Of a stretch of 7,680 bases of DNA, positions 1 to 7,680 are shown piece after piece (positions within the stretch are counted from its first letter, which is position 1; every line of letters starts with the position of its first letter). The stretch lies in the IMG/VR virus record IMGVR_UViG_2541047778_000001. One strand, 5' to 3'. The DNA is from a virus (Duplodnaviria; Heunggongvirae; Uroviricota; Caudoviricetes). The notes below the pieces were generated by a model that saw only the letters and a list, made by a program, of their open reading frames with translations, was not told the DNA's origin and did no database searches. The position numbers were made by a program, and so were the translations under genes.

Positions 1-41
1 CGTTGACGGACTTCGGGGGAAAAACGAGTATTTTTAGTCAT
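1..41 (-). CDS. IS629-like transposase OrfA, first 13 codons only (partial, runs off the window)
   Basis: ATG at 39-41 (minus strand) sits about 8 nt after AAAGAGGTAAACAGG. The translation MTKNTRFSPEVRQ matches my memory of the IS629/IS1203 OrfA N-terminus. Confidence 0.7.
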   Translation of the reverse strand, partial: MTKNTRFSPEVRQ

Positions 42-95
42 CCTGTTTACCTCTTTCTCAGGAAGTTTAGTCTCCAGGATTCCCGGGGCGGTTCA
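1..95 (-). mobile_element. IS3-family insertion sequence (IS629/IS1203-like), left end with terminal inverted repeat; element continues leftward beyond the window
   Basis: Reverse complement of 61-95 reads TGAACCGCCCCGGGAATCCTGGAGACTAAACTTCC, which has the TG terminus of IS3-family ends and matches my memory of the IS629 left end. It is followed by a GAGG-type RBS and an ATG opening MTKNTRFSPEVRQ. A 23/25 inverted copy of the same terminal motif lies at 7586-7610. Confidence 0.8.
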
Positions 96-1057
96 AGCTG
101 TTTATCAGAAATGCCACCCAGACCATCGCTAAATGTTCTGACTAAATTTTCTCGTGCTTGTTGTTGATTCAGCCGATTCTTACCGGTTCCAAAAAAAGGA
201 ACTCTTTCGCCTAATGTCTGAGCCTGACTCTGCATAAAGGTTTTATCTTTCAGCGTGTCACTGGTCATTAACGGCAGGTTTCTTTCCGACGCAAAATCGA
301 CAGCAGCCTTTGCTTCCGGTGACATCTCACCGCGAACAGCCCTGGAAACCGCACTAACTGTATTTTCCAGCCCCTTGCCAACACCACCAATGCCAGCAGA
401 AATTACCGTTTGTGCAGGATCAATATCTTCTCCGCCAGCAAGGCTGGTGCCACCCTGTAGTGCTAAATCTGTAGCAGCTGATTTCCCTATGGCACCAAGC
501 ACCGTTCCAGCCCTGCCCGCTGGTGTGAACGCTAACGCATTAGCAAGAAACGAAGTCAGGTCTTGCGGTGATAAACCTGGCTTGTTCAGGGCATAATCAC
601 CGGATGGCAGGGAAACGATAGTGTTACCCTTCTCATCCTGCCTTAATTTCGCCCCCATACTCTGAAGAATCTTTTCCTGAGACGCGTCGGAGCCGAAAAG
701 TTGAGACCATCCAGCCTTCAGGGCATCCATGCTTAGTGAGTTCAACTCAGGGGCAGCCCCAACATTTTGCAGTCTCTCCATTTCTGGTGTCATTCGGCTT
801 TCACCGGTAACGGCATCGCGCATTGCAGCACCTAAAACAGCCCCTTGCTCAGCAGAGCGATCTAGTCCTTCCTTCTGCTGAGTGGCAAGCTGTGCATATC
901 CTGATGCAAGTGAGTTGTCTGCTGGCGATTGCTGAACACCTTGTTGTGTTGGCGCTGACTGACCAGCAAAATACTCATCAATGGCGGACCCAATATCTTC
1001 CGTGCTCGTACCATCAGGAAAGGTAAATGTCTTACCATTTGCAGTTACTTTCATCAT
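47..1057 (-). pseudogene. P22 gp16-like DNA-ejection (internal virion) protein, 3'-truncated by the IS insertion; native part is 96-1057, the last 15 codons and stop are IS-derived
   Basis: Position in the gp7/gp20/gp16 ejection cassette. The N-terminus [23 protein letters not shown] is followed by a Gly/Ala/Gln-rich sequence. The ORF is about 336 aa, whereas P22 gp16 is about 609 aa as I recall. The frame runs straight across the IS terminus at 95 and ends EPPRESWRLNFLRKR, encoded by the IS inverted repeat. The start overlaps the gp20-like stop (ATGATGA). Confidence 0.75.
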
Positions 1058-2505
1058 TCCACCGTAAATTGAATGCCTGATTTTGACGTGTAGCTACCTC
1101 CTGCTGATTGCTGAGTAGCTGGCTGTTGCCTTGATGATTTCTTCCCGCCATTACCAACATTAACGTTATATTGCTGGTTGTAATTGTCGGTATATTGCTG
1201 AATGTCGCGCATTGATTGTTGCAGCGCTTCAGGACTTGAGAAATCAGGCTTTGGCATACCCTGAAAATACCTATTGGCCTCTGCTTCGGTGTTGATGCCA
1301 GATGCCCCCATATCTCGGGCTGCTGCAATCCCCTGATTTTGCATTTTGCCCATGATTCGCTGTGCAGCGTTGTATAGCCTCCTCTCCTCAACACCAGATG
1401 CCCTGCTACGAATATCTGCACCAAGAGCAAAAGAACCTGAAGAACCTGTAATACCTGTCATGAAGCCAAGATCGTCAATTGATGCGCCAGAAATTGCATC
1501 AAGATCTTTCTTCATTTCGTAATTCTGTGCATTAGCTGCCGATGTAGCCGGAGCAGCAATAGAACTGGCGGGGACGCGAATCATATTGCCCTCGTTGTCT
1601 ATTCCTTCGTAGAACGCATTAGCACCAGCGCCGTGAAGCTTCCTACCAACCGTTACCGTTCTGCCATCTGCCAGTTGCACAACATTCTCCCCGCCAGCAT
1701 CAGGACGACCTCGAACACGAAGATATGTCTTTTGTTGCTCTGGAGACAGGCTGTTGAAATATTGATATTCTTTAACAGATGCAGGAACAGCACCTCCAGC
1801 AGTGCGCAGGGAGTTTTCACGGCTAACAGCAATGCTTTGCGCCTTTAAACCTTCCCCAGCTTTATTGCTGCGAATCGTCTCTGCCAACTTGCCACGCTCA
1901 ATATCCCGACCTTCCATTTGATCTTTGATATCGAAATACTTCTCATGACCGAGAGAAAATAGTGCCAGATTACCTGCGAAGTGCTGGAAGCCCTGCGGGT
2001 CATTAACCTGCATTTCCGCAATAGTTTCTGGAGGGATACCTAAACGACGCATCTCCTTTTCGTTATCCATCATGAACCTGCCAAATGCACCCGGACCAAG
2101 CGACGAAGCGACCTGAGCCTTAAGCGCCAGATTGCCAAAATCATCCCGCTGGGCGTCATCGACATACCCCATGCCTTTACGGACTTCCTCAAACTCTTCG
2201 GGGAATGCTGTAATAAGATTACGCATCTGCTCCCTGTCGCCGGACGCATAAGCATCCGCATAACCTTTCTGGAATGCCGCTTTACGCTCCTGCTTTTGCT
2301 GCTGCTTATAAATATCAGCAACTCCAGCCAGACCACGAAGACCTGTCAGAGCAACGTTATTTGCACCTGATCGAGCCAGTTCATTGTTTTCGCGGATCAG
2401 ACCAAGCGTTGCGTTAATGTCGCTTGCCTTTGGCGCATTCTCATTTTGCGTACCGATGCCAGCCAGAAACCCACCAGAATTAATACCCTGTTGCCACGTA
2501 GCCAT
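1054..2505 (-). CDS. P22 gp20-like DNA-ejection (internal virion) protein
   Basis: 483 aa (P22 gp20 is about 471 aa as I recall). It lies between the gp7-like and gp16-like genes. Composition is rich in Q, N, A and G, including a tail [26 protein letters not shown]. The ATG is preceded by AAGGGGTAATCA. The stop overlaps the gp16-like start. Confidence 0.8.
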
Positions 2506-2515
2506 TGATTACCCC

Positions 2516-3208
2516 TTAAAACAACGAGCCAAGCAGACCAAGACCAGCACCGATACCAGCACCCCACGGAGTTGATAGCTCGAGAGCACTGGCTATGCCA
2601 CCACCCAAAAGCGCACCGGATGCAGCACCACTAACACCCTGCTGCAATGCTGACGGTCGGTTGGCGTTTGCCGCTGCAAGAGCCGCGCTTTGCTGTGAAA
2701 TCTGACTCATGTTGTTGGCATATGTTTGCCCGGCGTTTGCCTGCCCCTGAAGAGCGCCAAGACCGATATTTGCCAGGTTGTTGTAATTGTTCATTTGTCC
2801 AGATAGCCATTGCTGACCAAGCGTTGGTGCGATTGTTGCTAACTGATTACTGGTTGCGGTGGAACCCAATCCACCTGTTGCTTCCGCTGCCGCCAGACTC
2901 TGATAGCGAGCCTGACCTGCAAGGTCTTTATACTGCTGAGAGTTGTAATACTGGTTAAGTGCCTGACCTTGCCCTTCCAGAGACGATAAGTTCTCAAGGC
3001 TGCCGACATACTTCCCAGCCAGAGGAGTAAACAGCTTCAGGTTGTTCATGATGGTGTTGAACTGCTGATTTTGCAGGTCTGCGGCATACTTCTGAGCTTC
3101 TGCTGCATACTTTGCGCTTTTATCAGAACTGCCACCTTTCCCGCCTTTTTCAGGGTAATAAGGTTCCTCGCCGCGCAGTTTTCTGCCCAGCGTAAATGCA
3201 TATAACAT
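2516..3208 (-). CDS. P22 gp7-like DNA-ejection (internal virion) protein
   Basis: 230 aa (P22 gp7 is about 229 aa as I recall). The body is low-complexity Q/N/A/G-rich. The C-terminus is Gly-rich and hydrophobic (GALLGGGIASALELSTPWGAGIGAGLGLLGSLF). RBS GGGAGA lies upstream of the ATG at 3206-3208. Confidence 0.75.
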   Translation of the reverse strand: MLYAFTLGRKLRGEEPYYPEKGGKGGSSDKSAKYAAEAQKYAADLQNQQFNTIMNNLKLFTPLAGKYVGSLENLSSLEGQGQALNQYYNSQQYKDLAGQARYQSLAAAEATGGLGSTATSNQLATIAPTLGQQWLSGQMNNYNNLANIGLGALQGQANAGQTYANNMSQISQQSAALAAANANRPSALQQGVSGAASGALLGGGIASALELSTPWGAGIGAGLGLLGSLF

Positions 3209-3210
3209 GG

Positions 3211-3666
3211 CTATCTCCCGTGATTCAGGAAGTCGATTAGTTCTTCGCGTGTGGCGCTGTAAAACGTCACGTCATCCACGCCTTTGAAGTATTTCTTGAT
3301 GGTTCCTACACGCTTAAGGCCAATCATTGCGCAGTACATCTGCCCGTGGCGGAATTTGCGTGCAGCAAATGATGTGACGCACTGAACGGTGGTGTTGGTC
3401 AGAATGTATCGCCAGAACGCCAGCCCTATTTCCTTGCTGAAGCCGCGAATCTCTGGCAGGTACATGGCGTGGCAATCGAATGTAAGCGGCTGAATCTCCT
3501 GATAGTAAACAATGCCGCCAAACTGACCGTGCACGTTCACCTCAAAGTAACGGCAATCAGGTTTGTAGTCGTATCCATCACCGTTGTTGCTCCCGGCGAT
3601 GATGTCAGGGTGATTTCCTACTGCTTCGATCAGGTCGATGTTTCGCGTTGGTTTGAATGTAATCAT
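3211..3666 (-). CDS. Protein at the gp14 position of the P22-like module (ejection-protein assembly factor by synteny); function not recognisable from sequence
   Basis: 151 aa ORF whose ATG overlaps the tail-needle stop (ATGA at 3664-3668). It lies between the needle and gp7-like genes, as gene 14 does in P22. I do not recognise the sequence itself ([43 protein letters not shown]...). Confidence 0.55.
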   Translation of the reverse strand: MITFKPTRNIDLIEAVGNHPDIIAGSNNGDGYDYKPDCRYFEVNVHGQFGGIVYYQEIQPLTFDCHAMYLPEIRGFSKEIGLAFWRYILTNTTVQCVTSFAARKFRHGQMYCAMIGLKRVGTIKKYFKGVDDVTFYSATREELIDFLNHGR

Positions 3667-4367
3667 CAGTCAATCAGCCCATGTAATCTAAGTGCTGTTT
3701 CAAGCGCCAGAATACGCTGCCGCGCCTGCTCCAAACCTGTAGCGATAGCTGCGACTTCGGATTGTGTGTACGTAGTGCCGACCGTGTATGACTGGTTAGC
3801 GTTGAATGAGCCAAGAAGTGGTGTGCCTGTGGCCGCTGTCCATCCGGTCTGCCTTGCTCCAACGACCTGAATTCCATCAACTGAATATGATGTTTTTACA
3901 TCCAGCGGTGACGCAAGAGACTGCGATTCTGTTACGGTTTTCGATACGTAATCACTCTTAATGTCAGATATATCGCTTTCTACGCCATCCAGTCTTTGGT
4001 CAACAGTGACCAGATGCGCCTGAATATCGATAACCTCATCCAGCAAGTAATCAACATCGCTACGCAGTACAACTATCTTCCCTTCGGCGGTTGTTAACCT
4101 GACCTCAAGGAGATTTATCGCTTTTGTGTTTGCGGTGATTCTTGCATCGTGGTCAGCCAGTTCGACATCCTGTTCATCGTTTTTCACCTGAGCATCGTAA
4201 GCGCCCTGACCAGCCTGATTTGCTTTCCCGGCAATTGCGCCGACATCAGCCCCCTGATTAATGACATACAGCAGGTAAGACTGGCTGAATATATTGCGTG
4301 GAAGGATTGATGTATCGAGCCGCGTCGCCTGCACAATAACAGGGGTGTTGAGATTCGAATCAGCCAT
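3666..4367 (-). CDS. Tail needle (P22 gp26-like), short form of 233 aa
   Basis: N-terminus [36 protein letters not shown] matches my memory of the P22 gp26 N-terminal portal-plug domain. A heptad-like coiled-coil region follows. Length 233 aa equals P22 gp26. The start overlaps the gp10-like stop (TAATG). The ORF track's longer 267-aa version (start at 4469) is an upstream read-through into the gp10 gene. Confidence 0.85.
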
Positions 4368-5785
4368 TACTCGATCCTTATCTGGCAGCCAGACAGAGTG
4401 ACAGGTGACTTCGTGATAACGCGCAATTTGAAGCCGACATTTTTCCTGATGCGCCCGACTCGCTTCCACAAAACGCGTTTGTCGTAAACAAACGGTTCAT
4501 TCTGCTCAATCATCTGCTCACGACCGTAATTGATGCCGTCAGTGGTTGCAGAGAGAAAAAGGCGGTCGGCGTACTGCGCAACGCCAGTTGAAGATTCAAC
4601 TTCAAGGTCGAAAACTCTGGCGTTATCCGCTTTGAACAGAGGAGTAAACAGCAGATGCTCCTGTTGCTTGTCGTACTGGCTGCTGATGTCGAATTGCAAT
4701 TTCCCGGTCACGGACTCCAGCTTATCGCCGCACGTTATCTGATTGCCTTCGTAAATGAAGTCGATAGCGCGGTACACATCGTCATACAGACCTGTTTTCA
4801 GTACACACCATTGCGGAGCATTGGCGCTTGAAGATGCGTCGTATACGAGGACATGGCGCGGAAGATGGATAATCAGCAGCTCATGCGCATCAAATCGCAG
4901 AGACTCCATCACACCATCAGCCAGTTCATCAGCAGTGTAGGAGCGAAGAATTTTCTCAATGCTCGCGCTGGCGATTGGTGACACCTGCCCGGAACCGATG
5001 ATGTATACAGACGGCGCACCTGTTGCCGGATTGCTGATGAACGCATAGGAATCAGCGAATGGCGTTTTGCAATAGGTTCCGGCGATGCCTTTTTGCACCA
5101 TCAGTGATGGCTGTGCGACATACAAAGCAGCACCAACGGTGGTTGCGCCAGTCAGGGAGAAATATTCAATAGTCGATGAACCAAAGCAGACGATGAAGTC
5201 TCGCCATGTCCCGATACCGATGATGCCGTCCGGCTGCGATTCTGCGCGATATTGTGCACTGTATCGGTCAGGGTGCGATTCGTCTTCAAGGTCAGTGATA
5301 AACCATGAATCAGTTCCGTCTTTTGACCACGCATAACGCCCACGTAAGCGAGTAATGTCGCGAACTGAACCTAACTCATACTGCGTGAATCCACTGTCTG
5401 TAGGCCAGTTTGAGACGGTTTTAACCGTGCCATCATAACGATACTCGACCAGTTGACCATTAACGCCTACAGCCTGTGATGTTCGACCATGCGCCATTGA
5501 TACGCGACCACTTCCGGCGACGTCACCGACTTCGCTTTCTCCTTTGTACAGCTTGCCGCCACACACGCGATAAACAGCACTCTGCGCCATGTTGTACTCG
5601 ACGCCGCGCGATATACCATTCACATCAGAACGTTTGGCAATGCCCGGGAATGAGCGAAGATATCCGCTGCTGTTCAGGATTTCTTTGGGCGTAGCCAACA
5701 TATTCACTGGCAGATAGTCGATATAGTCGGCGTTTCGAAAGTCTTTGCCGACACCTTTCATAAGCGGAAGTTGCTGAATCGGCAT
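4367..5785 (-). CDS. P22 gp10-like head-completion / tail hub protein
   Basis: 472 aa, the same length as P22 gp10 as I recall. N-terminus [58 protein letters not shown] lies 6 nt upstream of the ATG. It sits between the gp4-like and needle genes. Confidence 0.85.
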
Positions 5786-5794
5786 TTATTCACC

Positions 5795-6256
5795 TCACGT
5801 ACTCGGATCATCTTTCTCGATGTAAAACCGATTCCACGTAAACGCGCTTTTGTTACCACTACCGCGAGGCATGTCATTTCGCCGCTCAAGTGGTGGTATT
5901 TTGGTTAAAGCGATACAGATTGTCTGATATGCACTGTCAGCAGCGGTAAGGAGAGCGTCTGACGGCTGAATGACGTTATCCATGCACACTTGCACAGCGA
6001 GTTTCAAAGCGACGCCATCATTTGCCCATGCAGGGATGCCTGAATCATCGTCAGGTAACGGCATGATGCCGTTTTCTGTATCAGCAAACTGATACCCAAG
6101 CTCGATACCTTTCGCCTGCCATGCTGCCATCATGTCTTCGAGGTCATTAATGGCATCTTCAATTGCCTGAGGGTCAGCATCTGTCAACGTGGCATTGGAA
6201 TACAGCCCGGCTTTTCGTAAAGCCTTTAGAACGAGATCACCCTTCGTTTTCGCCAT
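5795..6256 (-). CDS. P22 gp4-like head-completion (tail adaptor) protein
   Basis: 153 aa (P22 gp4 is about 166 aa). N-terminus MAKTKGDLVLKALRKAGLYSNATLTDADPQ. Located immediately upstream of the gp10-like gene. Confidence 0.7.
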   Translation of the reverse strand: MAKTKGDLVLKALRKAGLYSNATLTDADPQAIEDAINDLEDMMAAWQAKGIELGYQFADTENGIMPLPDDDSGIPAWANDGVALKLAVQVCMDNVIQPSDALLTAADSAYQTICIALTKIPPLERRNDMPRGSGNKSAFTWNRFYIEKDDPST

Positions 6257-6425
6257 CTTCTTCCGCCTTAGCCACTTTTTGCTTCGTTGCGGTTTCTTCA
6301 GGAGTTTTTACCCAACCTTTTTTCAGGTGAGATTTAACTTCTTCGTCATCAACAATGATGTAATCGACAGCAAACTGACCGCAGGTGATCATGTTGCCTG
6401 GCTTATAGAGCATTGTTCGTGCCAT
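6237..6425 (-). CDS. Small hypothetical protein (62 aa) between coat and gp4-like genes
   Basis: ATG at 6423-6425 is preceded by a strong RBS (TTGGGAGAAGACAATG). Translation is MARTMLYKPGNMITCGQFAVDYIIVDDEEVKSHLKKGWVKTPEETATKQKVAKAEEDGENEG with an acidic C-terminus. The 3' end overlaps the gp4-like start by 20 nt. Sf6-type phages carry a small gene at this position, as I recall. Confidence 0.5.
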   Translation of the reverse strand: MARTMLYKPGNMITCGQFAVDYIIVDDEEVKSHLKKGWVKTPEETATKQKVAKAEEDGENEG

Positions 6426-6436
6426 TGTCTTCTCCC

Positions 6437-6460
6437 AATAAAAATGGGGCCGAAGCCCCA
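6437..6460 (-). terminator. Intrinsic (rho-independent) terminator just downstream of the coat gene
   Basis: On the minus strand, 6 nt after the coat stop: TGGGGC-TTCG-GCCCCA (6-bp GC-rich stem, UUCG tetraloop, 6445-6460) followed by TTTTTATT (6437-6444). Confidence 0.6.
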
Positions 6461-6466
6461 CCAAAA

Positions 6467-7585
6467 TTACTGCCCAGCAATAACGATGCCCGTATATTCA
6501 GGAACCAGTACAGAGCAACCGTACAGAGTGGTGAAACGCGCAGTGGTTACGCCTTTGATGTGGTCGAAGGAGTAAGACATGATCAGCGTAGCGCCCTGCT
6601 CGGTGGTTGCTGTCATTACCTGTGGACCCTGACCAGTTGGGAACGCCAGTTTGCCGTACATCAGTTCAACAGAACCATCAGCCCAGAACAGGTTAGCAGG
6701 TGCTGCGTTCTTGTTGAGAATGGTGATTGCTGCTGATTCTGCCGGTTTGGCATCGACGTTTGCATATGGACGACTCGCAACATCAGTATTTTCAACAGGG
6801 AGAATCTTTGGAGAAATTGTTACGGTAGTTCCGCTAACAGCCAGAACACGGAATACCTGCGGTTGACCGGTGGTATCTTTTGTGATCTGGTGTACGGAAT
6901 TCACACCGGCAATGGTGAACGCATCACCAACCTGCAAGCCAGATGCAGATACCGTAATAGTCCCCTGTCGGTTATCAACTGGCATACCATTTGAATCTTT
7001 CGCTTCAACCTTGTGTTCAGGTTGGCCTGATACTGTCAAGGATTCAGTGCTTCCTTTCGGTAATCGACCAGAAATATCGGTCTTGTAGCTATCGAAGGAC
7101 GCAACCGGAGGGATTTGCGCTTTTTCGTATGCTGTCAGGGTTGCGCCCTGAGCATAGGCACGGTGACCAAGCTCGCCAGCAAGGTCTTTGTAGTTGAAGG
7201 GGTTCCAGAAAGAGCGACGGTTGATACCCTGAGGTACACCAATCGCCGTCATGGTGGCATCAATACCTGCCGCACAGTTCCACAAATCACGGCCCTGTGT
7301 ACCTGCGGTTGAGTCAGCCATCGTGATCACGTTAGTAGCACGCTGCGTGACCATGGAAATCAGGTCAGAGTCAATCTGTGCAGCAAGGCGCATACCTGCG
7401 GCGCGACCAGCTTCAGTTTTATGTTCCGGATCACGCATTTCACGCGCATCCAGAGTGTACAGAATGTTTTTCGGCTCCTTGAACACTGAAGGAACAAGGC
7501 GCTGAACCAGTGCTGTTGGCGTTTTGCTGCTGAGGTCGAGGCCTTCCTCAATATTCATGTGGTAATGCTGCGGACGATACAGAAC
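6467..7585 (-). pseudogene. P22-type major coat protein, 5'-truncated by the IS insertion (about 45-55 N-terminal codons missing)
   Basis: The 363-aa ORF aligns by eye with remembered P22 gp5: EGLDLSSKTPTALVQRLV vs EGWDLTDKATGLLELNV, RSFWNPFNYKD vs TSYFFNPQDYKK, and RPYANVDAKPAESAAITILNKNAAPANLFWADGS vs [34 protein letters not shown]. Its Met-1 corresponds to about residue 55 of P22 coat. The frame stays open 9 codons upstream to the IS boundary at 7585 and on into the IS until TAA at 7616-7618. There is no Shine-Dalgarno before the ATG at 7556-7558. Confidence 0.8.
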
Positions 7586-7680
7586 TGAACCGCCCCGGGT
7601 TTCCTGGAGAGTGTTTTATCTGTGAACTCAGGCTGCCAGATCATCGTTTCCGATGGAAGCATAATAAGCTTTTTCTGCTT
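7586..7680 (-). mobile_element. IS3-family insertion sequence (IS629/IS1203-like), right end with terminal inverted repeat; element continues rightward beyond the window
   Basis: Plus strand 7586-7620 reads TGAACCGCCCCGGGTTTCCTGGAGAGTGTTTTATC, matching my memory of the IS629 right inverted repeat. It matches 23/25 of the terminal motif at the left window edge in inverted orientation. Confidence 0.8.
7628..7680 (-). CDS. IS629-like transposase OrfB, C-terminal 16 codons plus stop (partial, runs off the window)
   Basis: Minus-strand frame gives ...AEKAYYASIGNDDLAA then TGA at 7628-7630, 42 nt inside the IS terminus. This is consistent with the end of an IS3-family OrfB, but I cannot confirm it from memory. 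Confidence 0.5.
   Translation of the reverse strand, partial: AEKAYYASIGNDDLAA

What the first reader, a model, noticed from the sequence alone, without database searches (positions are those of the whole stretch)
7556..7618. Coat gene has lost its 5' end to the IS; the frame is continuous with IS sequence and the remaining ATG has no RBS
Alignment by eye with the P22 coat places this ORF's Met-1 near residue 55 of a roughly 430-aa coat protein. The frame is open from an IS-internal TAA (7616-7618) through the junction at 7585/7586 into the coat. No purine-rich SD precedes the ATG (upstream is CGTCCGCAGCATTACCAC). A coat lacking its N-arm should not assemble; any expression would depend on read-through from the IS.
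Basis: partly seen in the sequence, partly recalled or inferred. Interest (0 to 1): 0.5.

Follow-up and report, generated by a model that had tools for sequence, protein, structure and literature searches.

The report
IS-truncated prophage coat gene remnant
This is the dead remnant of a phage coat (capsid) gene in an E. coli prophage, cut off at codon 45/46 by an IS1203 insertion sequence; it is an ordinary example of prophage decay.

Summary
On the minus strand, the 363-aa ORF (6467-7558) is the 3' 87% of a CUS-3/P22-type coat gene. Coat-homologous codons run 9 codons past the ATG to 7585. An IS1203 (IS629-type, IS3 family) right end starts at 7586. The in-frame TAA is at 7616-7618. The remnant is 100% identical in DNA to phage phiv205-1 and 371/372 identical to the solved CUS-3 coat (PDB 8skg), starting at residue 46 of 417. 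The ATG is internal codon 55.

Fourteen intact homologues (53-100% identity) all carry the conserved 45-residue N-terminus, so a "naturally short coat" is refuted. The ATG has no Shine-Dalgarno pairing (+1 kcal/mol, against -5.6 for the true coat start), and no promoter-like site lies nearby.

In the source scaffold (E. coli HVH 127) the other IS flank is the large terminase gene cut at codon 236. That means 4,046 bp (terminase 3' part, portal, scaffold, coat 5' end) are gone and there is no target duplication. This adjacency crosses an N-gap and is therefore scaffold-level evidence only. The same junction or contig breaks occur in three other datasets.

Verdict: a recent, non-functional pseudogene in a defective prophage. 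This is a known phenomenon of low interest.

The parts
6467..7585 (-). Coat gene remnant: codons 46-417 plus stop of a CUS-3/phiv205-1-type (P22 family) major capsid protein
   Evidence: Pfam PF11651 P22_CoatProtein scores 226 bits (cutoff 24) and covers profile positions 50-423 of 423. The remnant is 371/372 identical to PDB 8skg, chain residues 45-416. Its DNA is 100% identical to phiv205-1. It aligns from column 46 of 14 intact homologues.
7556..7558 (-). ATG that opens the 363-aa ORF; it is internal Met55 of the native coat, not a genuine start
   Evidence: No SD pairing, +0.9 to +1.1 kcal/mol. Met55 is not conserved among homologues.
7559..7585 (-). Nine native coat codons (VLYRPQHYH, codons 46-54) between the IS boundary and the ATG
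   Evidence: Identical to CUS-3 and phiv205-1 coat residues 46-54.
7586..7680 (-). Right end (IRR side) of IS1203/IS629-type IS3-family element. It holds the last 16 orfB codons, the orfB stop TGA at 7628-7630, a further in-frame TAA at 7616-7618, and the terminal inverted repeat ending ...CCCGGGGCGGTTCA at 7586
   Evidence: 95/95 identical to copies annotated 'IS3-like element IS1203 family transposase' in 4,062 of 5,426 complete E. coli genomes. The reference copy L010 is 1310 bp, and its transposase CDS ends at the position equivalent to 7628.
6443..6462 (-). Terminator-like GC hairpin plus T-run directly after the coat stop codon
   Evidence: It is part of the native phage sequence and is shared with phiv205-1.
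1..95 (-). Left end (IRL side) of a second IS1203 copy in the same orientation, interrupting the gp16-like ejection-protein gene. The window is the assembly contig between the two IS copies
   Evidence: The window equals L003 9879-17558, lying between N-runs of 1110 and 1040 bases.

Best explanation
The window comes from a defective CUS-3-like (Lederbergvirus, P22 family) prophage of E. coli HVH 127. An IS1203 element sits where about 4 kb of the head-morphogenesis module used to be. Its IRL side abuts the large terminase gene at codon 236, and its IRR side abuts coat codon 46. The most likely origin is one of two routes: an IS-associated adjacent deletion, or homologous recombination between two directly oriented IS1203 copies once inserted in terL and in the coat gene. 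Which route applied is inferred, not shown. What remains of the coat gene is a 5'-truncated pseudogene. The annotated 363-aa 'gene' merely starts at the first internal Met (codon 55). It has no ribosome-binding site and no nearby promoter. Two stop codons separate it from the IS transposase frame. Any transcript would arise passively, by read-through from the IS or from the phage late operon, which runs in the same direction. Translation should be poor. Any product would lack the N-arm and F-loop needed for scaffold binding and inter-subunit contacts. Portal, scaffold and a complete terminase also appear to be missing, so the prophage cannot make heads. The event is recent, because the remnant has zero substitutions relative to a full-length phage gene.
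For: Shown: truncation point and identity. Shown: IS identity and orientation. Shown: the source scaffold has terL(1-707 nt)|IS1203 IRL ... N-gap ... IRR|coat codon 46. The retained ends plus the gap total 120+1110+95 = 1325, close to the 1310 bp of one IS copy. Relative to phiv205-1 and CUS-3, 4,046 bp are missing (L001 9287-13332). Shown: flanks are GAA and GTT, so there is no 3-bp duplication, whereas a simple IS1203 insertion in O157 (L010) has CTT/CTT. Shown: no SD. Shown: no promoter-like site and no minus-strand terminator between orfB and the ATG. Shown: 403 of 5,426 complete E. coli genomes carry the uninterrupted sequence across the site. Shown: the junction is real and heritable. 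The identical IS|coat junction is in an ENA metagenome scaffold (L005). An identical 7,484-bp contig breaking within 2-4 nt of both IS boundaries is in GCA_047580575.1, plus one similar place. From the literature: in P22 gp5 the N-arm is residues 2-30, the F-loop 34-50 and the E-loop 51-78, and D14/E15/E18 of the N-arm bind scaffold R293/K296 (PMC9965877).
Against: The link between the terL-side and coat-side contigs crosses a 1,110-N scaffold gap inside a repeat, so the 4-kb deletion rests on scaffolding rather than contiguous sequence. I could not search the rest of the HVH 127 assembly for an unplaced terL3'-portal-scaffold-coat5' contig. Absence of a target duplication is weak evidence here, because the second IS copy (window 1-95) also lacks one although its flanks are exactly contiguous in intact relatives. 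No expression data were available, so 'not expressed or non-functional' is an inference.
Confidence: 0.85

Rival explanations
1. Simple IS1203 insertion into an otherwise complete coat gene. Under this reading the first 45 codons, scaffold, portal and the rest of terL still exist on a separate IS-flanked contig that the scaffolder skipped or misplaced. There would be two independent insertions (terL and coat) and no deletion.
For: Both contig ends lie inside a repeat, and the join is an N-gap. The prophage holds at least three IS1203 copies, which makes scaffolding ambiguous.
Against: The gap estimate plus retained ends (1325) fits one 1310-bp IS, not IS + 4 kb + IS. The orientation of the two ends matches one element (IRL...IRR). 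The flanks show no duplication.
Confidence: 0.1
2. A naturally short coat protein that starts at MNIEEGLDL, with the IS inserted in the upstream intergenic region.
For: None found. 363-aa ORFs do recur in databases (P0042, P0048, P0129).
Against: All 14 intact homologues start 54 residues earlier with a conserved N-terminus, and Met55 is not conserved. The solved CUS-3 capsid protein is full length. The 9 codons upstream of the ATG are native coat codons. The other 363-aa ORFs examined result from 1-nt homopolymer frameshifts (L004, L006-L008) or from a ninB-coat deletion (L009).
Confidence: 0.01
3. Assembly artefact: a chimeric contig end created by collapsing IS repeats, so that no real IS|coat junction exists.
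For: The window is a short-read contig bounded by repeats.
Against: The identical junction appears in an independent metagenome assembly (L005). Identical contig breaks at both boundaries appear in at least two other NCBI assemblies. PGAP 'partial' proteins starting at L47 carry two accessions.
Confidence: 0.02
4. The truncated coat is expressed by IS or late-operon read-through and has been co-opted, for example as a dominant-negative subunit that poisons capsid assembly of superinfecting CUS-3-like phages.
For: The IS and the late operon point into the remnant, and no minus-strand terminator intervenes. The remnant ORF is intact with zero substitutions.
Against: There is no SD and no promoter. 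Zero divergence means recency, not purifying selection. The lineage is rare: no complete RefSeq genome has the junction. Neighbouring genes are also IS-broken, which is typical of decay.
Confidence: 0.02

Closest known systems
CUS-3 coat protein (PDB 8skg; CP000711 ECRS218_0018) and phiv205-1 coat gene (MN340231, 19942-21195)
   Same: Residues 46-417 are 371/372 identical to CUS-3 and 372/372 to phiv205-1. The remnant DNA is 100% identical to phiv205-1. Downstream gene order is the same: small ORF, gp4-, gp10-, gp26-, gp14-, gp7-, gp20- and gp16-like genes.
   Different: The first 45 codons, the native GGAG ribosome-binding site and the upstream scaffold, portal and terL 3' genes are missing. 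An IS1203 end takes their place.
Bacteriophage P22 gp5 coat protein (PDB 2xyy/5uu5; HK97 fold with I-domain)
   Same: Same Pfam family (PF11651). The alignment puts remnant residues 4-312 on P22 residues 49-365.
   Different: Only distant sequence similarity (E about 3e-32). The remnant lacks the equivalents of the P22 N-arm (2-30), P-strand 31-33 and most of the F-loop (34-50), as delimited in PMC9965877.
IS1203 / IS629 (IS3 family) insertions and IS-associated deletions in E. coli prophages
   Same: The terminal 95 nt are identical to annotated IS1203 copies. The transposase orientation and stop codon position match. IS-bounded loss of adjacent prophage DNA is a well-known mode of prophage decay. 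From my own knowledge, IS629-linked deletions are documented in O157:H7 lineages.
   Different: The usual 3-bp target duplication is absent (GAA versus GTT). The interior of this copy is not sequenced (N-gap), so its integrity is unknown.

Membership tests
P22-type major capsid (coat) protein, Pfam PF11651 | Significant match to the family HMM above the gathering threshold | tested here: met
   226.1 bits against a cutoff of 24, E 9.3e-67.
P22-type major capsid (coat) protein, Pfam PF11651 | Full-length protein including the N-terminal arm (profile positions 1-49) | tested here: not met
   The match covers profile positions 50-423 of 423 only. The remnant starts at residue 46 of 417 in the alignment with 14 intact homologues.
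Functional protein-coding gene (own translation start) | Start codon preceded by a Shine-Dalgarno sequence and conserved as a start in homologues | tested here: not met
   Duplex energy is +0.9 to +1.1 kcal/mol, against -5.6 for the true start. The Met is internal and not conserved.
IS1203/IS629 (IS3 family) | Terminal inverted repeat TGAACCGCCCCGGG... and an orfB 3' end identical to reference copies | tested here: met
   95/95 identity to annotated IS1203 copies, and the orfB stop falls at the equivalent position.
IS1203/IS629 (IS3 family) | Complete 1310-bp element with orfA/orfB and a programmed frameshift | not testable with these tools
   The interior is a 1,110-N scaffold gap. Ends plus gap total 1325, consistent with one copy.
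IS1203/IS629 (IS3 family) | 3-bp direct target-site duplication flanking a simple insertion | tested here: not met
   Flanks are GAA (terL side) and GTT (coat side). The reference copy L010 has CTT/CTT. This fits a deletion or recombination product rather than a simple insertion.

The most novel reading that the evidence does not exclude
The N-arm-less coat fragment is transcribed by read-through from the IS or the late operon. It is translated at a low level from Met55 and acts as a dominant-negative capsid subunit, protecting the host lineage against superinfecting CUS-3-like phages.
Probability: 0.02. Interest if true: 0.5.

Novelty: already known. Interest (0 to 1): 0.07.

Why it matters
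It matters mainly for annotation. The 363-aa 'hypothetical protein' (EQR52840.1) should be marked as a 5'-truncated coat pseudogene, and the prophage as defective (unable to form heads). It is also a caution for database users. Identical 363-aa ORFs arise from at least three unrelated lesions: the IS junction, 1-nt homopolymer frameshifts, and a ninB-coat deletion. All three arise because Met55 is the first in-frame start codon downstream of each lesion examined. No new biology is implied.

Tried and rejected
I searched all complete RefSeq E. coli genomes for the coat|IS junction and the terL|IS junction, hoping for a gap-free copy that shows both IS flanks. Neither junction was found.

Exact-pattern scans for the junction in GTDB species-representative genomes and in JGI metagenome contigs both returned nothing.

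I looked for an outward or hybrid sigma-70 promoter at the IS end and found none in 6400-7680. Reading the hexamers by hand also gave at most 3/6 and 2/6 matches.

I checked whether the recurrent 363-aa ORFs in other assemblies indicate an IS hot spot. They do not. L004 and L006-L008 have 1-nt deletions in CCC or A6 homopolymers, and L009 is a ninB-coat deletion.

I tried to define microhomology at the L009 junction by aligning ninB alleles, but the alleles are too divergent at the DNA level.

I had intended to use absence of a target duplication as proof of deletion. I downgraded it after finding that the second IS copy also lacks one despite contiguous flanks.

Full report
**Observation.** The minus strand of 6467-7558 is a 363-aa ORF. 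Translating further upstream in the same frame gives ...AEKAYYASIGNDDLAA*VHR*NTLQETRGGS|VLYRPQHYH-MNIEEGLDL.... A second stop, TGA at 7628-7630, ends the IS transposase. There is no ATG, GTG or TTG between the TAA and the ATG at 7558. The sequence from 7586 onward (TGAACCGCCCCGGGTTTCC... on the plus strand) is 95/95 identical to elements annotated 'IS3-like element IS1203 family transposase' in 4,062 of 5,426 complete E. coli genomes. In a reference copy (L010, 1310 bp, 3-bp CTT target duplication) the transposase CDS ends at the position equivalent to window 7628. The IS therefore lies with its transposase on the same strand as the coat gene, and its right inverted repeat abuts the coat sequence at 7586/7585.

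**Is the coat truncated?** Yes.
- Pfam P22_CoatProtein matches at 226 bits but only from profile position 50 of 423.
- The solved CUS-3 coat (PDB 8skg, 416-residue chain) aligns 371/372 identical, starting at chain residue 45. P22 gp5 aligns from its residue 49 to remnant residue 4.
- The remnant and 3' flank (6300-7585) are 100% identical in DNA to phage phiv205-1 and 99% identical to CUS-3.
- In phiv205-1 the coat CDS is 417 codons plus stop, and the window junction corresponds to 135 nt (45 codons) inside it.
- The nine codons VLYRPQHYH between the IS and the ATG are thus native coat codons 46-54, and the ATG is internal Met55.
- An alignment with 14 intact homologues spanning 53-100% identity (E. 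coli, Shigella, Providencia, Serratia, Xenorhabdus, Enterobacter and others) shows that every one carries the conserved N-terminus MANQLxKDLEIMFExYV...MQRAGDV upstream of the junction. Met55 itself is replaced by Ala or Thr in three of them.

403 of 5,426 complete E. coli genomes carry the uninterrupted sequence across the insertion site.

**Context.** The window is the exact reverse complement of L003 9879-17558, from scaffold KE700025.1 of GCA_000457855.1. This is E. coli HVH 127, and the protein is EQR52840.1 'hypothetical protein'. It is precisely one contig lying between two N-runs of 1110 and 1040 bases. Both contig ends are IS1203 ends in the same orientation. Window 7586-7680 is the IRR side of one copy. 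Window 1-95 is the IRL side of another copy that interrupts the gp16-like ejection-protein gene.

Across the first gap, the scaffold continues with 120 nt of the IS1203 IRL side abutting the large terminase gene at nt 707 (codon 236 of 471). Compared with phiv205-1 and CUS-3, the stretch L001 9287-13332 (4,046 bp) is absent. This stretch holds the terL 3' part, portal, scaffold and coat codons 1-45. The retained ends plus the gap total 1325, which matches one 1310-bp IS. The flanks are GAA and GTT, so there is no target duplication.

This points to an IS-associated deletion or to recombination between two IS copies. I stress that the adjacency crosses a scaffold gap in a repeat. I also note that lack of duplication is weak evidence, because the gp16 IS copy also lacks one although its flanks are exactly contiguous in 399 complete genomes.

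A third IS1203 copy, in the opposite orientation, lies next to ninB. The prophage is therefore multiply damaged.

**Is the junction real?**
- The identical IS|coat junction is present at the start of an ENA metagenome scaffold (L005).
- A 7,484-bp contig of GCA_047580575.1 is 100% identical to window 100-7583, so it breaks within 2-4 nt of both IS boundaries. One more similar place was reported.
- PGAP 'partial' coat proteins starting at Leu47 exist under two accessions.
- No complete RefSeq E. coli genome, GTDB representative or JGI metagenome contig has the junction. It therefore marks a rare lineage.

**Expression potential.** The anti-Shine-Dalgarno duplex energy upstream of the ATG is +0.9 to +1.1 kcal/mol, meaning no pairing. 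It is -5.6 at the true coat start (GGAG) and -7.0 to -8.4 at the gp4-, gp10-, gp7- and gp20-like genes. No in-frame start within the next 100 codons has a good SD. No sigma-70-like promoter is found on either strand in 6400-7680. The only minus-strand terminator-like hairpin is the native one after the coat stop, at 6462-6443. Transcription could therefore only come from read-through of the IS transposase transcript or of the phage late operon. The late operon runs in the same direction, and Q, lysis genes, terS and the terL 5' part are present upstream. This step is inferred. Fusion to the transposase would need read-through of two stop codons.

**Consequence for the protein.** In P22 gp5 the N-arm is residues 2-30, the P-domain strand 31-33, the F-loop 34-50 and the E-loop 51-78. 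N-arm residues D14, E15 and E18 bind scaffold R293 and K296, and the N-arm refolds on maturation to contact the neighbouring asymmetric unit (PMC9965877). By alignment, the remnant begins at about P22 residue 46 and the ATG product at about residue 55. The whole N-arm, nearly all of the F-loop and, for the ATG product, the first residues of the E-loop are therefore missing. By inference from P22, such a protein should not be recruited by scaffold. Here the scaffold, portal and terminase C-terminal half appear to be deleted as well.

**Age.** The remnant has zero substitutions in 1,119 nt relative to a full-length phage gene, so the truncation is recent. The intactness of the ORF is not evidence of selection.

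**Comparison and verdict.** This is a textbook IS-mediated inactivation of a prophage structural gene. The remnant belongs to the P22 coat family by HMM, but it fails the full-length and own-start criteria. The IS end meets the identity criteria for IS1203/IS629. The usual 3-bp duplication is not present, which fits a deletion or recombination product. Nothing here is new in kind. Its practical value is correct pseudogene annotation.

The most novel reading not excluded is a dominant-negative coat fragment conferring phage interference. Nothing positive supports it, and I put it at about 2%.

Noticed in passing
window 1-95 and 7586-7680 (L003 17464-17558 and 9879-9973): The window is exactly one assembly contig between two scaffold N-gaps. 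Both ends are IS1203 ends in direct orientation, so 7.49 kb of phage genes (coat remnant through the gp16 N-terminal part) is bracketed by two IS1203 copies, like a composite transposon. An identical 7,484-bp contig exists in GCA_047580575.1.
   Followed up: partly
window 95/96 (L003 17463/17464 and 18693/18694): The IS1203 copy in the gp16-like gene has no target-site duplication (flanks ...CAGCT and TTATG...). Even so, the two flanks joined without the IS match 399 complete E. coli genomes over at least 80% of the 600-nt query (100% identity in the best hits). This is an apparently clean insertion with a 0-bp (at most 1-bp) duplication, which is unusual for an IS3-family element.
   Followed up: partly
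L009 2576-2620 (Logan SRR29981052); equivalent to window 7579/7580: A different defective prophage has ninB (first 83 codons) fused directly to the coat gene at codon 47/48. This is only 6 nt from the IS1203 junction seen in this window, and no IS is present. It is probably coincidence given the many coat truncations in databases, but the microhomology could not be checked.
   Followed up: partly
L004 37-201, L006 3101-3265, L007 472-636, L008 27-191: Several Logan contigs split the coat gene into a 54-aa ORF plus the same 363-aa ORF (4-nt ATGA overlap). The cause is a 1-nt deletion in a CCC or A6 homopolymer within the first 35 codons. These could be sequencing errors or real frameshift pseudogenes. 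They explain why 363-aa coat 'proteins' form clusters of 50-60 members.
   Followed up: yes
L003 1-1087: A third IS1203 copy, in the opposite orientation, abuts the start of ninB. No phage early-region genes (repressor, replication) were called between it and ninB in the held locus, which suggests further loss on that side of the prophage.
   Followed up: no
proteins P0058, P0087, P0090-P0094, P0097-P0099, P0103: Many database proteins fuse part of this coat to other P22-module proteins: gp14-like DUF2824, tail needle knob, gp16, gp4, gp20, portal, gp7 and NinB. This indicates frequent internal deletions in P22-like prophages of E. coli and Salmonella.
   Followed up: no
protein P0122: A 429-aa coat variant carries a perfect 12-residue tandem duplication (GTQGRDLWNCAA twice) in the region after the spine helix.
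   Followed up: no
window 6443-6462, minus strand: A GC-rich hairpin plus T-run lies immediately after the coat stop codon and before the 62-aa ORF and the gp4-like gene. It looks like an intrinsic terminator or attenuator inside the late operon.
   Followed up: no
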